Part shown: piece after piece, positions 3,636 to 24,283 of the stretch
Layout: each line of letters starts with the position of its first letter
Numbering within the stretch: the stretch's first letter is position 1
Origin: Candidatus Aenigmatarchaeota archaeon
Lineage (GTDB): Archaea > Aenigmatarchaeota > Aenigmatarchaeia > GW2011-AR5 > JAGGXF01
Direction of reading: 5' to 3'
DNA length: 32,000 bases
NCBI GenBank assembly: GCA_021157845.1
Contig: JAGGVU010000003.1
Coordinates: forward strand, 1-32,000
Made by a program: the position numbers and the translations under genes
The notes under the pieces: generated by a model
Told to the model about the DNA's origin: nothing
The model's database searches: none
What the model saw: the letters and a program-made list of their open reading frames with translations, nothing else

Positions 3636-3808
3636 GCCGGGGTAGCTCAGATGAACTTTTCAAAAAAAGTTCAATCAAAATGCGAAGTTCAGAGAAATGG
3701 TAGAGCGCTACGCTCATAAGAATTTATGAGCTATGAACTGCCTTGTGCAGTAATGACAAAACGCTCTAGGAAACGTAGAGGTCGCGAGTTCGAAACTCGC
3801 CTCCGGCA
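3636..3808 (+). tRNA. tRNA-Met or Ile2 (anticodon CAT) with two introns
   Basis: Exons 3636-3651, 3698-3719 and 3774-3808 join into a 73-nt cloverleaf. Acceptor GCCGGGG/CTCCGGC (one G-U), D stem GCTC/GAGC, anticodon stem CTACG/CGTAG, loop CTCATAA (CAT at 3715-3717), T arm GCGAG-TTCGAAA-CTCGC, discriminator A. Introns are about 3652-3697 (D-loop, 46 nt) and about 3720-3773 (at or next to 37/38, 54 nt); boundaries are ambiguous by 1 nt. G1:C72 and the anticodon stem argue against an initiator tRNA. Confidence 0.85.
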
Positions 3809-6766: not shown

Positions 6767-6961
6767 GCCTCGGTAGCTCAACTGGCAGAGCATCTGTTGA
6801 ACCTTTTTAGAAAAAAGCTTCAATGGAAAAAGAAAAGGTCCAGATGAAACTTGTAACTGACGAACTTTTAAAAGGTTCGATAAAAACTGATCTATTGATC
6901 GGCTTTGCCGAAATGAAAGCATGAGATCAGAAGGTTGGGGGTTCAACTCCCTCCCGAGGCT
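6767..6961 (+). tRNA. tRNA-Thr (anticodon TGT) with two introns
   Basis: Exons 6767-6796, 6849-6856 and 6927-6961 give a 73-nt cloverleaf. Acceptor GCCTCGG/CCGAGGC, D arm GCTC-AACTGGCA-GAGC, anticodon stem TCTGA/TCAGA, loop CTTGTAA, variable AGGTT, T arm GGGGG-TTCAACT-CCCTC, discriminator T (U73 is reported for archaeal tRNA-Thr). Introns are about 6797-6848 (inside the anticodon stem, about 30/31) and about 6857-6926 (at or next to 37/38). TATA-like tttttatat lies about 35 nt upstream and a T-run follows the 3' end. Confidence 0.8.
6799..6831 (+). repeat. Intron sequence module shared with tRNA-Gly intron 2
   Basis: gaacctttttagaaaaaagcttcAatgGaaaaa here versus gaacctttttagaaaaaagcttcGatgTaaaaa at 23966-23998: 31 of 33 nt identical. 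Confidence 0.9.
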
Positions 6962-11434: not shown

Positions 11435-12376
11435 TTAGAATAAATCTTTCAGATATATTTTATATTTTCCAAGTCTTCCTCCAAAATTGACAGATGAAAC
11501 GCCAAGAACACCTCGTATATCTGAAACAGTTTCTATAACTTCTTTCATCGCAGTTTTTACCACATCTATATTTATCCCGTTTATTATGGTTTCAGGTATA
11601 GACGTAATGCCTTCTGGCACTTCTGAATCAGGTATTTTATTTCTTAGTGTCGGACAATATCGCTGGTTGGTGGTAGGGCCTATTGCTTTATACTCCTCAC
11701 CAAGCTTTGTTCCTTTATATTTTTCAGCCATGTCCGAGCCAAGCTTTGAGGCACCGCCACATATCTCAAACGGCGCAATTGCTCCCTCAACCTTTCTGAC
11801 AGCTTTTGTAACCTTTCTTGTCAACTCACCCTCAGAAAGTTCGTTATTACAGAAATATAAAATATCTCCCCCAGCTATACCCTTTCCCAGGCCAAGGCCA
11901 TTCTCTATGTAGAAATCTCCTCTAGCCAAAGGAATTTTTATCATCTCTCTTCCGTATTTTTTTACCAGTTCTTGGTGCCCGTCACCACAAAAACCGACAT
12001 TTTTCATTATATCATATTTTTTCTCACAATCTCTATTATAATCAAAAATAGCAGTTCCGAGCCTGATAAGTGTTCCCTGTCTGATTCTTTCACCTATTGT
12101 CAGTTTTTTGGATTTATGTCTTCTGTATATTTGAACCCGTACCCCCTCTCTGCCATCAGGTGTTTCCTCTTTACATAGGCGTTTCTCTATCCCTCCTTCT
12201 GTTCCTCCTATAACTAAAGCAGACGGCCTCGTTGTTTCTTGTGCAGCATTTATTAGAATAAGCGGATCGTTTGCAGTTATGTCAAATCTCACAAATTCTG
12301 TTTCAAACAGTTCAGAATAAGCATCAGCGTTGACCTCTAGGTCTCCAACATGAAAACTATTTTTAAATAATGACAT
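11435..12376 (-). CDS. ftr: Formylmethanofuran--tetrahydromethanopterin N-formyltransferase (Ftr) family
   Basis: 313 aa. Many segments match my recollection of methanogen Ftr: ETPDGREGV, FCGDGHQ, IKIPLARGDFYIE, GIAGGD, VEGAIAPF, GGASKLGS, RYCPT, VPEGI, INGI and the C-terminal NFGGRLGKYKIYLKDLF. Confidence 0.85.
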   Translation of the reverse strand: MSLFKNSFHVGDLEVNADAYSELFETEFVRFDITANDPLILINAAQETTRPSALVIGGTEGGIEKRLCKEETPDGREGVRVQIYRRHKSKKLTIGERIRQGTLIRLGTAIFDYNRDCEKKYDIMKNVGFCGDGHQELVKKYGREMIKIPLARGDFYIENGLGLGKGIAGGDILYFCNNELSEGELTRKVTKAVRKVEGAIAPFEICGGASKLGSDMAEKYKGTKLGEEYKAIGPTTNQRYCPTLRNKIPDSEVPEGITSIPETIINGINIDVVKTAMKEVIETVSDIRGVLGVSSVNFGGRLGKYKIYLKDLF

Positions 12377-23107: not shown

Positions 23108-23433
23108 AACTTAATTAAACTGCATTGGTTTAAATTGTTTTTTACTTCAATCGCATAAGGCTTAATTAAAAAATATGACATCATTTTAATCAATAATAAT
23201 TTAATAATAACTTTATAAGCCCAAGATTTGGATAATTTTCAGAATCGGTCAAGATTCATCAAAAACTAGTTTAGCTTCATATCCATTTTTTTTATTTCAG
23301 CTTTTTCATAAATTATAAATTTTATACCCATCTCCGGATCTTTCATTATTGATGTTTTGTCATCAAGGATATTCATAAAATCACCAATAATATTTGTAGG
23401 GAATTTATTAAAAATCAGATAAAGAAAAGAATT

Positions 23434-23565
23434 TCAGTTAACAGCTATCTTTTCTTCGCAGCCACAAAGAGGGCATCTCACAGTATCGTAATACATCTCA
23501 AATCCGCAATTAGAGCATTTCCAAATTCGCGTGAATGTTTTGGCATATTTAGGTTTTCTTCCCAA
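23434..23565 (-). CDS. Possible small zinc-ribbon protein (about 43 aa), absent from the ORF track
   Basis: Minus-strand frame reads (TTG)GRKPKYAKTFTRIWKCSNCGFEMYYDTVRCPLCGCEEKIAVN*. Two CxxC pairs. The only in-frame start candidate is TTG at 23563-23565; the nearby ATG (23583-23585) is in another frame that lacks the Cys motif. Confidence 0.35.
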   Translation of the reverse strand: MGRKPKYAKTFTRIWKCSNCGFEMYYDTVRCPLCGCEEKIAVN

Positions 23566-23830: not shown

Positions 23831-23840
23831 TTTAAATAAA
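23831..23840 (+). promoter_or_regulatory. Candidate TATA box for tRNA-Gly
   Basis: tttaaataaa is centred about 30 nt upstream of tRNA position 1 (23865) and is preceded by a purine-rich, BRE-like aaagaaaaca. Confidence 0.45.
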
Positions 23841-23864: not shown

Positions 23865-24116
23865 GCGCGGGTAGTCTAGTGAACCTTTCTTTCAAAAAGA
23901 AAGTTTCAATCTAAAGAAACTTGAGAAAGGTTTGGAAAATCTGGTTAGGACCTTAGCCTTCCACCGAACCTTTTTAGAAAAAAGCTTCGATGTAAAAACC
24001 TGAAAGGTTTGTAAGAAAGCTAATGACCCGGGTTCAAACGAGCCCTTTCTCTTTATAAAGAGAAAGCCCTCGATGGGAAAGAGAAACATTAGGCTCTGAA
24101 AATCCCGGCCCGCGCA
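23865..24116 (+). tRNA. tRNA-Gly (anticodon TCC) with three introns
   Basis: Exons 23865-23880, 23941-23963, 24018-24038 and 24103-24116 join to GCGCGGGTAGTCTAGTCTGGTTAGGACCTTAGCCTTCCAAGCTAATGACCCGGGTTCAAATCCCGGCCCGCGCA (74 nt). Acceptor GCGCGGG/CCCGCGC, anticodon stem TTAGC/GCTAA, anticodon TCC at 23960-23962, T arm CCGGG-TTCAAAT-CCCGG. Introns are about 23881-23940 (D-loop), 23964-24017 (37/38) and 24039-24102 (T-loop); boundaries are ambiguous by 1-4 nt. Confidence 0.9.
23966..23998 (+). repeat. Intron sequence module shared with tRNA-Thr intron 1
   Basis: 31 of 33 nt identical to 6799-6831. Confidence 0.9.
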
Positions 24117-24123
24117 TTTTTTT
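24117..24123 (+). terminator. Oligo-T terminator after tRNA-Gly
   Basis: A T7 run follows the discriminator base directly. Archaeal RNA polymerase terminates at oligo-T tracts. Confidence 0.5.
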
Positions 24124-24202
24124 GATTTTTAACCAAAACAAAAGCTTAAAATAGTGTAAAAACAATAAAATTATAATAATTAAGTTAGTGAAAGGAGGTG
24201 AA

Positions 24203-24283
24203 ATGGAGATGGTATGGTACTATTGGGCATTGATTATAATAATAATCTTAGTCATTCTCTATTTCGTAATGAAAAAGAAGTAA
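24203..24283 (+). CDS. Possible 26-aa single-TM micropeptide
   Basis: GGAGGTG Shine-Dalgarno element 5 nt upstream of the ATG. Product MEMVWYYWALIIIIILVILYFVMKKK*: a hydrophobic helix with a KKK anchor. Located about 100 nt upstream of the ABC operon. Confidence 0.35.
   Translation: MEMVWYYWALIIIIILVILYFVMKKK

What the first reader, a model, noticed from the sequence alone, without database searches (positions are those of the whole stretch)
23865..24116. tRNA-Gly(UCC) gene interrupted by three introns (D-loop, anticodon loop, T-loop)
Four exon pieces (16 + 23 + 21 + 14 nt) spread over 252 nt assemble into a textbook 74-nt tRNA-Gly with fully paired acceptor, anticodon and T stems. Only the middle insertion is at the canonical 37/38 site. 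The other two sit in the D-loop and in the T-loop (around position 59/60). Triple-intron tRNAs are rare and are known mainly from a few archaeal lineages such as Thermoproteales. Non-canonical sites imply a broad-specificity splicing endonuclease. Each insert begins with a stable AT-rich hairpin. The 65-aa ORF called here (23892..24089, minus) is an artefact.
Basis: partly seen in the sequence, partly recalled or inferred. Interest (0 to 1): 0.7.

Follow-up and report, generated by a model that had tools for sequence, protein, structure and literature searches.

The report
Three-intron glycine tRNA gene, archaeal
This is very probably a working glycine tRNA gene of an uncultivated DPANN archaeon (Aenigmatarchaeota) that is cut into four pieces by three small introns; it is a rare but already known kind of gene layout, and here the introns are copies of one family that also sits in two neighbouring tRNA genes.

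Summary
Window 23865-24116 (+) holds four colinear exons (15/16 + 24/23 + 21 + 14 nt). Joined, they give a 74-nt tRNA-Gly(UCC) with all 21 cloverleaf pairs. No tRNA is detected in the unspliced DNA.

The introns lie in the D-loop (15/16, equivalently 16/17), at 37/38 and at 59/60.
- The T-loop junction folds into a perfect bulge-helix-bulge motif (BHB).
- The anticodon-loop junction has one mismatch in the central helix.
- The D-loop junction is a relaxed HBh' form.

The source is a 'Candidatus Aenigmarchaeota' genome assembled from metagenomes (DPANN). Other strains keep all exons. A second Aenigmatarchaeota species has an orthologous D-loop intron with compensatory changes.

New here:
- The window holds two more hidden two-intron tRNA genes: Met/Ile2(CAU) at 3636-3808 and Thr(UGU) at 6767-6961.
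- Five of the seven introns belong to one sequence family.
- The T-loop intron differs by 33% between strains that are otherwise about 98.5% identical, yet its BHB is kept.

Verdict: a new member of a known kind, the multi-intron archaeal tRNAs previously reported from Thermoproteales, ARMAN and Nanoarchaeum. Splicing itself and the endonuclease type remain untested.

The parts
23831..23838 (+). TATA-box-like TTTAAATA preceded by a purine-rich stretch, 27-34 nt upstream of tRNA position 1. Putative archaeal promoter.
   Evidence: Read directly from the sequence. The spacing fits general knowledge of archaeal promoters. Identical in strain L004. Not tested functionally.
23865..23879 (+). Exon 1: acceptor 5' strand, U8 A9, D-stem 5' strand, A14 G15. 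It may equally end at 23880, because U16 can come from either side of the intron.
   Evidence: Identical in all strain copies.
23880..23939 (+). Intron 1 (60 nt; equivalently 23881-23940), in the D-loop at 15/16 (or 16/17). Relaxed HBh' motif. Central helix H is 23874-23877 with 23934-23937: 3 pairs plus a G.A mismatch. Bulges AG|U and AA|U. Inner helix 23881-23891 with 23923-23933. No outer helix.
   Evidence: An orthologous intron in L013/L015 shows the compensatory change AACC/GGTT to AGCC/GGCT. The register is chosen by analogy with the D-loop intron of tRNA-Met at 3651-3697. An alternative register (H TCTA/TGGA, intron 23881-23938) would give a 12-nt D-loop.
23940..23963 (+). Exon 2: rest of the D-loop (UCUGGUUA), D-stem 3' strand, C26, anticodon stem 5' strand, loop C32-A37 with anticodon UCC.
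   Evidence: The 21-mer 23943-23963 is identical in Aenigmatarchaeota L013/L015 and Nanoarchaeia L014.
23964..24017 (+). Intron 2 (54 nt), canonical 37/38. hBHBh' motif. Outer helix is the anticodon stem, 23953-57 with 24019-23. H is CTTC with TAAG: 3 pairs plus 1 mismatch. Bulges CA|C and AA|A. Inner helix 23965-73 with 24003-11.
   Evidence: In strain L004, TAAG becomes TGAG and pairing is kept through G.U. It is a paralogue of intron 1 (z 6.4).
24018..24038 (+). Exon 3: A38, anticodon stem 3' strand, variable loop, T-stem 5' strand, T-loop positions 54-59 (TTCAAA).
24039..24102 (+). Intron 3 (64 nt), in the T-loop at 59/60. Strict hBHBh' motif. Outer helix is the T stem, 24028-32 with 24104-08. 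H is TTCA 24033-36 with TGAA 24097-100. Bulges AA|C and AA|T. Inner helix GAGCC 24040-44 with GGCTC 24092-96. An internal hairpin lies at 24046-24067.
   Evidence: The minimum-free-energy (MFE) fold of the arm is exactly this motif. The second allele (L004 type, 61 nt) also folds to it, with inner helix CCAACC/GGTTGG. The two alleles differ at 21 of 64 positions against a 1.55% background (P about 6e-21).
24103..24116 (+). Exon 4: U60, T-stem 3' strand, acceptor 3' strand, discriminator A73. No encoded CCA.
24117..24123 (+). Run of seven T directly after A73. Putative archaeal oligo-T terminator.
   Evidence: Read directly. An 8-T run in L004. Function is inferred.
23892..24089 (-). 65-aa ORF overlapping the tRNA gene on the opposite strand. 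Spurious.
   Evidence: Its N-terminal part is cut by a stop codon in the L004 allele.
6797..6848 (+). Member of the same intron family in the neighbouring tRNA-Thr(UGU) gene, at anticodon-stem position 30/31. Strict hBHBh' (H CATC with GATG).
3651..3697 (+). Member of the same intron family in the neighbouring tRNA-Met/Ile2(CAU) gene, in the D-loop at 15/16. HBh' motif.
   Evidence: nhmmer E 7e-4; it was part of the training set.

Best explanation
This is a functional tRNA-Gly(UCC) gene of an Aenigmatarchaeota (DPANN) archaeon.

Proposed pathway:
1. It is transcribed as one precursor of about 252 nt, from an archaeal TATA-type promoter to an oligo-T terminator.
2. The precursor folds so that each intron-exon junction forms a bulge-helix-bulge motif. 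The T-arm motif is strict (59/60). The anticodon-arm motif is near-strict (37/38). The D-arm motif is a relaxed HBh' form (15/16) that borrows the 5' strand of the D stem.
3. The archaeal splicing endonuclease EndA cuts in the six bulges.
4. An RtcB-type ligase joins the four exons.
5. CCA is added, giving a 74-nt (+CCA) tRNA.

The three introns are paralogues of one 47-64-nt structured intron family. Members of the family also interrupt the neighbouring tRNA-Thr and tRNA-Met/Ile2 genes at other positions. This points to intron gain by copying between tRNA genes.

Shown here: the exon and cloverleaf anatomy, the BHB-compatible folds, conservation and covariation, and intron paralogy.
Inferred: transcription, cleavage, ligation, and the way the introns spread.
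For: 1. The spliced product is called tRNA-Gly(tcc) with a perfect cloverleaf. By reading, it has U8, A14, G18G19, A21, U33, A37, G53-C61, the TTCAAAT T-loop, C2-G71, G3-C70 and A73 (plus general tRNA knowledge).
2. The cloverleaf covaries across three DPANN tRNA-Gly sequences: 100% paired, 5 compensatory pairs.
3. The T arm with intron 3 has the strict hBHBh' as its MFE fold in both alleles. Intron 2 fits with 3 of 4 central-helix pairs, and intron 1 with 3 of 4 plus an 11-bp inner helix. All three motifs and the acceptor stem are compatible in one fold of -77.8 kcal/mol, against an unconstrained MFE of -85.1.
4. Selection pattern: exons are identical in all strains. Differences fall only in the introns, and they keep pairing.
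5. The L013/L015 species has the orthologous D-loop intron with a compensatory change, a different 37/38 intron and no T-loop intron.
6. A promoter-like TATA and a T7 run flank the gene.
7. The host is archaeal, Aenigmarchaeota. DPANN EndA enzymes with the L3 loop are associated with raised tRNA disruption, and undetected disrupted tRNAs were predicted for DPANN (PMC5829648).
8. All three tRNA genes in the window are built this way.
9. Intron paralogy: z 6.4 for intron 1 against intron 2, and 5.6 for intron 2 against L013 intron 1. The family profile hits only tRNA introns in about 150 kb of fetched, largely redundant sequence (window plus loci).
Against: - There are no RNA data, so splicing is not shown.
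- No EndA or RtcB gene was seen. The window has none among 30 ORFs scanned.
- The D-loop motif is relaxed: a G.A mismatch in the central helix and no outer helix. Its splice sites are ambiguous. The alternative 4-of-4 register would give an abnormal 12-nt D-loop.
- The unconstrained MFE of the whole precursor is not the tRNA-like fold.
- Intron 2 contains a T5 run (23971-23975), which could cause some premature termination by archaeal RNA polymerase (general knowledge).
- The rest of the genome could not be searched for an intron-less tRNA-Gly(UCC).
Confidence: 0.85

Rival explanations
1. It is a decayed tRNA pseudogene. A former tRNA-Gly gene was disrupted by three insertions of a small repeat (MITE-like) element and is no longer used. 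A different, intact gene supplies tRNA-Gly(UCC).
For: - The inserts belong to one repeat family.
- Standard tRNA finders do not see the gene.
- The whole genome could not be searched for another copy.
- The D-loop junction is only a relaxed motif.
Against: - Exons are 100% conserved between strains, while an intron diverged by 33%.
- Compensatory changes keep the acceptor and T stems across species.
- Every insert sits so that a BHB forms with the flanking exon, and the BHB survives turnover of the intron sequence.
- The two other tRNA genes in the window have the same build. DPANN genomes are small and, by general knowledge, usually carry one gene per isoacceptor.
- The exon-2 21-mer scan found no further copy in the collections searched, but that coverage is incomplete.
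Confidence: 0.05
2. The gene is functional but processed differently. Only the strict BHB introns (37/38 and 59/60) are removed by EndA. The D-loop insert is removed at other sites or by another route, or is partly retained. The mature D-loop would then differ from the 10-nt AGUCUGGUUA proposed here.
For: - The D-loop junction has two competing registers. H TCTA/TGGA gives 4 of 4 pairs and would leave a 12-nt D-loop. H GTCT/GGAA gives 3 of 4 and leaves a 10-nt loop.
- In L013 the 5' bulge is only 2 nt if the inner helix is fully paired.
- EndA enzymes without a specificity loop cut D-loop HBh' introns poorly (PMC5829648).
Against: - The tRNA-Met gene in the same window has a family member at the same D-loop site, where only the 15/16 register works. 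That register gives a standard 7-nt D-loop.
- The same register gives identical standard D-loops in the window and in L013.
- A retained 60-nt insert would destroy the D arm.
Confidence: 0.07
3. The introns carry a functional RNA of their own, for example a C/D-box guide RNA as in the Haloferax tRNA-Trp intron, or a k-turn protein-binding site. That function would explain why they are kept.
For: - Family members share a conserved internal box, YTTCRATG, and a downstream CTGA/GTGA.
- The three-arm architecture is conserved and covaries.
Against: - No Rfam family matches, even at E up to 10.
- The 'GA' of the would-be C box is not conserved (TTCAATC or TTCAATG in several members).
- The box is explained as the end of the proximal arm, which pairs with the 5' arm.
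- The CTGA overlaps the central-helix strand of the BHB.
Confidence: 0.03

Closest known systems
Multiple-intron tRNA genes of Thermoproteales (Crenarchaeota), with up to three introns per gene (Sugahara et al. 2008, as summarised in PMC4033280 and PMC4090602)
   Same: - Colinear exons.
- Up to three short introns per gene: one at 37/38 and the others at non-canonical sites, including 59/60.
- BHB or relaxed BHB at each junction.
- Missed by standard tRNA finders.
   Different: - The host is a DPANN archaeon (Aenigmatarchaeota) with 34% G+C, not a hyperthermophilic crenarchaeon.
- The introns are long for non-canonical ones (47-64 nt) and share a three-arm architecture.
- The endonuclease type is unknown: (alpha-beta)2 in Thermoproteales, but alpha4+L3, (alpha-beta)2 or epsilon2 in DPANN (PMC5829648).
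[quoted passage not shown] 2010, cited in PMC4090602 and PMC4033280)
   Same: Very similar intron sequences occur in different tRNA genes and at different positions. Here these are Gly 15/16, Gly 37/38, Gly 59/60, Thr 30/31 and Met 15/16.
   Different: - A different lineage and an unrelated intron sequence family.
- Two strongly different alleles of one intron exist in strains that are about 98.5% identical. I did not find this reported in the papers read.
ARMAN-2 (Micrarchaeota, DPANN) pre-tRNAs with non-canonical introns, e.g. tRNA-Cys(GCA) with an hBH intron at 59/60, cut by the epsilon2 EndA (PMC3239211; PMC5829648)
   Same: A DPANN host and an intron at 59/60. Multi-intron tRNAs are listed for ARMAN-1/2 (PMC4033280).
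   Different: The 59/60 junction here is a strict hBHBh', not a relaxed hBH. Whether the enzyme is of the epsilon2 type is unknown.
Methanopyrus kandleri pre-tRNA-Glu(UUC), with a D-loop HBh' intron plus a canonical intron (PMC5829648)
   Same: A relaxed HBh' intron in the D-loop combined with a canonical 37/38 intron in one gene.
   Different: There is a third intron here. The M. kandleri enzyme cuts the D-loop intron inefficiently, and nothing is known about efficiency in this lineage.
tRNA-Thr(GGU) locus heterogeneity in a Caldiarchaeum subterraneum population (PMC3293823)
   Same: Co-occurring genotypes in the environment differ in the intron content or sequence of one tRNA gene.
   Different: There the difference is intron gain and gene splitting linked to a 1.8-kb mobile element that encodes a recombinase. 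Here a 61/64-nt intron allele is exchanged within unchanged splice sites, and no recombinase is nearby.

Membership tests
Archaeal EndA-dependent (BHB) tRNA introns | Removing the inserts leaves a canonical cloverleaf tRNA. | tested here: met
   ARAGORN calls tRNA-Gly(tcc) at 74 nt, and 21 of 21 stem pairs form. Covariation supports the fold.
Archaeal EndA-dependent (BHB) tRNA introns | Each junction shows two 3-nt bulges on opposite strands, separated by a 4-bp helix (hBHBh'), or an accepted relaxed form (HBh', hBH, BHL). | tested here: met
   - Intron 3 is strict.
- Intron 2 has 3 of 4 central-helix pairs plus both flanking helices.
- Intron 1 is HBh' with 3 of 4 central-helix pairs and no outer helix.
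 The relaxed forms are accepted only by broad-specificity enzymes (PMC5829648).
Archaeal EndA-dependent (BHB) tRNA introns | The host is an archaeon that encodes EndA and an RtcB-type ligase. | not testable with these tools
   The host is archaeal (Aenigmarchaeota). No EndA or RtcB is found among 30 window ORFs.
Archaeal EndA-dependent (BHB) tRNA introns | The inserts are excised from the transcript. | not testable with these tools
   This needs RNA data.
Multiple-intron tRNA genes (Thermoproteales / ARMAN / Nanoarchaeum type) | Two or three introns in one colinear gene, with at least one at a non-canonical position. | tested here: met
   Introns at 15/16, 37/38 and 59/60. Three is the reported maximum (PMC4033280).
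Transposing tRNA-intron families (Fujishima 2010 type) | Significantly similar intron sequences occur in different tRNA genes or positions. | tested here: met
   Pairwise z-scores reach 6.4 between positions and 5.6 between species and positions. They share one architecture. The profile hits only tRNA introns. Actual movement is inferred, not shown.
Split or permuted tRNA genes | The pieces lie at separate loci or in permuted order. | tested here: not met
   All four exons are colinear within 252 nt.
Group I / group II introns in tRNA genes | A ribozyme core of hundreds of nucleotides that matches Rfam models. | tested here: not met
   The inserts are 54-64 nt. Rfam gives no match at the gathering threshold or at E up to 10.
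C/D-box sRNA-bearing tRNA introns (Haloferax tRNA-Trp type) | C (RUGAUGA) and D (CUGA) boxes that form a k-turn, with a guide sequence. | tested here: not met
   No RUGAUGA is present. The GA of the candidate box is not conserved across family members. No Rfam C/D match is credible.

The most novel reading that the evidence does not exclude
The 47-64-nt introns would be copies of one currently active, structured BHB-intron family in Aenigmatarchaeota. The family moves between tRNA genes and positions (15/16, 30/31, 37/38, 59/60).

It could also replace resident copies exactly at the splice sites. The two T-loop alleles fit this: they differ by 33% inside a background that is about 98.5% identical.

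The conserved layout is a 5' arm, a proximal complementary arm and a distal complementary arm, which gives two mutually exclusive helices. Under this reading the layout would be a determinant of mobility or a folding switch that controls when the BHB forms.

If so, natural sediment populations would offer a system for working out the still unknown mechanism of archaeal tRNA intron gain.
Probability: 0.3. Interest if true: 0.65.

Novelty: new member of a known kind. Interest (0 to 1): 0.45.

Why it matters
- **Annotation.** All three tRNA genes in this 32-kb window are invisible to ARAGORN and Rfam, or are mis-called. With ARAGORN's intron option the Thr gene is called tRNA-Leu(gag) and the L013 Gly gene tRNA-Pro(agg). 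'Missing' tRNAs in DPANN genomes assembled from metagenomes, and estimates of completeness or codon usage built on them, may therefore be artefacts of intron-rich genes. Kaneta et al. 2018 suspected this.
- **Evolution.** Triple-intron tRNAs and spreading intron families now extend from Thermoproteales to Aenigmatarchaeota.
- **Mechanism.** Two intron alleles exist within otherwise near-identical strains. This gives a concrete and testable case of recent intron turnover, whose mechanism is unknown in archaea.

Tried and rejected
- **Standard detection.** ARAGORN on the raw window and with -i/-ps options found nothing. Rfam at gathering and at E up to 10 gave no tRNA and only chance hits.
- **Whole-precursor fold.** The global MFE of the 252-nt precursor gives long-range pairings between intron repeats, not the tRNA-like fold. 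I replaced it with local folds and a constrained fold.
- **Collection scans.** The metagenome collection is incomplete, because contig L009, which is known to carry the gene, was not returned. Absence of a second gene copy is therefore weak evidence.
- **Synteny.** Using gene order to reach orthologues failed. L013/L015 share no neighbouring genes with the window.
- **Window-wide BHB enumeration.** It gave about 15,000 candidates per strand in this AT-rich DNA and was abandoned. A GC-rich acceptor-pair scan and a T-arm plus acceptor scan found only the three tRNA genes.
- **C/D-box or k-turn reading of the conserved intron box.** Rejected.
- **Alternative D-loop register** (H TCTA/TGGA, 4 of 4 pairs). 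Considered and ranked second, because it yields a 12-nt D-loop and does not work for the tRNA-Met paralogue.
- **EndA search.** None among 30 window ORFs. About 7 kb fetched beyond the right end of the window showed an Rpr2 (RNase P subunit) gene but no EndA.

Full report
**1. What is in the sequence**

Window 23865-24116 (+) reads as four stretches of tRNA sequence separated by three AT-rich inserts. ARAGORN finds no tRNA in the 32-kb window, and none in this region even with its intron option. Rfam finds nothing at the gathering threshold and only chance hits at E up to 10.

Joining 23865-23879, 23940-23963, 24018-24038 and 24103-24116 gives this 74-nt sequence:

GCGCGGGTAGTCTAGTCTGGTTAGGACCTTAGCCTTCCAAGCTAATGACCCGGGTTCAAATCCCGGCCCGCGCA

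ARAGORN calls it tRNA-Gly(tcc) with complete acceptor, D, anticodon and T stems.

By direct reading it carries U8, A14, G18G19, A21, U33, A37, G53-C61 and a TTCAAAT T-loop. It also has C2-G71, G3-C70 and A73, which I know as archaeal/eukaryal glycine identity elements.

A TTTAAATA box lies at 23831-23838, which is -34 to -27. Seven T follow A73. These are the expected places for an archaeal promoter and terminator, by inference.

**2. Source organism**

Four proteins encoded in the window are exact matches to NCBI entries named 'Candidatus Aenigmarchaeota archaeon' (MCD6215613, -628, -631, -643). The window has 33.7% G+C.

The same locus was assembled independently from several JGI, ENA, NCBI and Logan samples. 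It is therefore not an assembly artefact.

**3. Splice motifs**

I applied the standard BHB geometry:
- on the 5' side: exon helix H (4 nt), then a bulge NN|N, then the inner helix;
- on the 3' side: inner helix, then H' (4 nt), then a bulge NN|N, then the outer helix.

*Intron 3 (24039-24102, position 59/60)* is a strict hBHBh':
- T stem CCGGG with CCCGG;
- H TTCA with TGAA;
- bulges AA|C and AA|T;
- inner helix GAGCC with GGCTC.

This is also the unconstrained MFE fold of the arm.

*Intron 2 (23964-24017, position 37/38)* has:
- the anticodon stem as outer helix;
- H CTTC with TAAG (3 pairs and one mismatch);
- bulges CA|C and AA|A;
- a 9-10-bp inner helix.

*Intron 1 (D-loop)* is relaxed. 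In the register I prefer:
- H is G10-U13 with GGAA (G.A mismatch plus 3 pairs);
- the bulges are AG|U and AA|U;
- the inner helix has 11 pairs;
- there is no outer helix, which makes it HBh'.

This register gives the intron as 23880-23939 and a standard D-loop, AGUCUGGUUA.

A competing register has H TCTA with TGGA (4 of 4 pairs) and would leave a 12-nt D-loop. I rank it second for three reasons:
- The tRNA-Met gene in the same window carries a paralogous intron at the same site, and only the first register works there. It yields a normal AGUGGUA loop.
- The first register gives identical D-loops in the window and in species L013.
- By my knowledge of tRNA numbering, a 12-nt D-loop exceeds the standard range.

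All three motifs and the acceptor stem can coexist in one fold at -77.8 kcal/mol. The unconstrained MFE is -85.1 kcal/mol and uses pairings between the repeated intron arms.

**4. Comparative evidence**

*Strains.* Strain copies L004, L005, L006 and L009 have identical exons. Outside intron 3, the window and L004 differ at 1.55% of 3.7 kb. Introns 1 and 2 have one substitution each.

Intron 3 differs at 21 of 64 positions, including indels (P about 6e-21). Even so, the L004 allele keeps H, keeps both bulges, and replaces the inner helix GAGCC/GGCTC with CCAACC/GGTTGG. Its internal hairpin changes on both arms, and it again folds to a strict hBHBh'. The window-type allele also occurs in L007.

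*Other species.* The exon-2 21-mer scan found a second Aenigmatarchaeota species (L013/L015) and a Nanoarchaeia genome (L014).
- L013/L015 carries an orthologous D-loop intron (z 8.2) with the compensatory change AACC/GGTT to AGCC/GGCT. It also has an unrelated 31-nt intron at 37/38 and no T-loop intron.
- L014 has only a 37/38 intron.

Across the three spliced tRNA-Gly sequences every cloverleaf cell is paired and five pairs change on both sides. Only 1 of 500 shuffles does as well.

*The overlapping ORF.* The 65-aa minus-strand ORF is interrupted by a stop codon in the L004 allele.

**5. Beyond the finding: two more tRNA genes and an intron family**

A motif taken from the introns hit a copy at 6802-6838. 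Inspection and a T-arm plus acceptor scan then revealed two more hidden tRNA genes:
- tRNA-Met or Ile2(CAU) at 3636-3808, with introns at 15/16 and 37/38;
- tRNA-Thr(UGU) at 6767-6961, with a strict-BHB intron at 30/31 and another at 37/38.

Both spliced sequences are called by ARAGORN with perfect cloverleaves. In the other strain their exons are identical, and the only three differences lie in introns.

Five of the seven window introns belong to one family: Gly introns 1, 2 and 3, Thr intron 1 and Met intron 1. L013 intron 1 and L004 intron 3 belong to it too.
- Similarity scores reach z 8.5. Gly intron 3 is the most diverged member (z 2-3.7 against the others).
- A profile built from the family hits nothing outside tRNA introns in the window and all fetched loci.

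Members share a 5' arm ((Y)GAACCTTTTT), a proximal complementary arm ending in TTCR, and a distal complementary arm that forms the BHB inner helix. The first base of the 5' arm covaries with both other arms: C with G and G in Gly intron 2, and T with A and A in Thr intron 1.

**6. Comparison with what is known**

[quoted passage not shown] Multi-intron tRNAs are also listed for Nanoarchaeum, M. kandleri, Korarchaeum and ARMAN-1/2 (PMC4033280).
- Reported non-canonical positions include 59/60 and 30/31 (PMC4090602).
- A D-loop HBh' intron plus a canonical intron occurs in M. kandleri tRNA-Glu. ARMAN-2 tRNA-Cys has a 59/60 intron (PMC5829648).
- Similar introns in different tRNAs and positions were interpreted as intron transposition in Thermoproteales (PMC4090602, PMC4033280).
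- Kaneta et al. linked L3-loop EndA enzymes in DPANN with raised tRNA disruption and predicted unidentified disrupted tRNAs there.

The finding is therefore a new member of a known kind, in a lineage for which I found no specific report.

**7. What remains open**

- Splicing has not been observed.
- The EndA type is unknown.
- The splice sites of the D-loop intron are uncertain by 1-2 nt.
- The rest of the genome could not be searched for another tRNA-Gly(UCC) gene.
- Intron mobility is inferred from paralogy and from the allele replacement. It has not been shown.

Noticed in passing
window 3636-3808 (+): Hidden tRNA-Met or tRNA-Ile2 (anticodon CAT; G1-C72, so not an initiator) with two introns. 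One is at 3651-3697 in the D-loop at 15/16 (HBh', same family as the Gly introns). The other is at 3719-3772 at 37/38. Missed by ARAGORN and Rfam. The spliced 72-nt product is called tRNA-Met(cat).
   Followed up: yes
window 6767-6961 (+): Hidden tRNA-Thr(TGT) with two introns. One is at 6797-6848 in the anticodon stem at 30/31 (strict hBHBh', nearly identical in sequence to Gly intron 2). The other is at 6856-6925 at 37/38. With its intron option, ARAGORN mis-calls the strain copies (L020-L024) as tRNA-Leu(gag) with a 124-nt intron.
   Followed up: yes
window 24039-24102 versus L004 3659-3719: Two alleles of the T-loop intron (64 and 61 nt, 33% different) lie inside DNA that is otherwise about 98.5% identical. 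The differences start at intron nucleotide 2 and stop just before the H'/bulge nucleotides. This looks like replacement of the intron rather than drift.
   Followed up: partly
window 23108-23433 versus L004: The stretch between the Na/Ca-exchanger gene and the small zinc-ribbon ORF does not align between the two strains. L004 has a 97-aa gene there. This is a strain-specific replacement a few hundred bases upstream of the tRNA gene.
   Followed up: no
window 23434-23565 (-): A 43-aa ORF with two CxxC pairs (MGRKPKYAKTFTRIWKCSNCGFEMYYDTVRCPLCGCEEKIAVN), conserved in L004. Probably a small zinc-ribbon protein.
   Followed up: no
window 24188-24283 (+): A short hydrophobic ORF of 26-31 aa (…MVWYYWALIIIIILVILYFVMKKK), preceded by GGAGGTG, directly downstream of the tRNA gene and 100% conserved in L004. 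Possibly a small membrane protein.
   Followed up: no
window 11435-12376 (-): A formylmethanofuran-tetrahydromethanopterin formyltransferase (Ftr) gene, with both Pfam FTR domains, in a DPANN (Aenigmatarchaeota) genome. This seemed unexpected for a lineage with reduced metabolism.
   Followed up: no
window 23971-23975 and 6804-6808: T5 runs lie inside Gly intron 2 and Thr intron 1. Archaeal RNA polymerase can terminate at oligo-T, so these introns might attenuate their own precursor.
   Followed up: no
L027 1020-1361 (about 6 kb beyond the right end of the window): An Rpr2 (RNase P protein component) gene lies next to the ribosomal protein genes S19e and L31e. No EndA gene was seen in that extension.
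   Followed up: no
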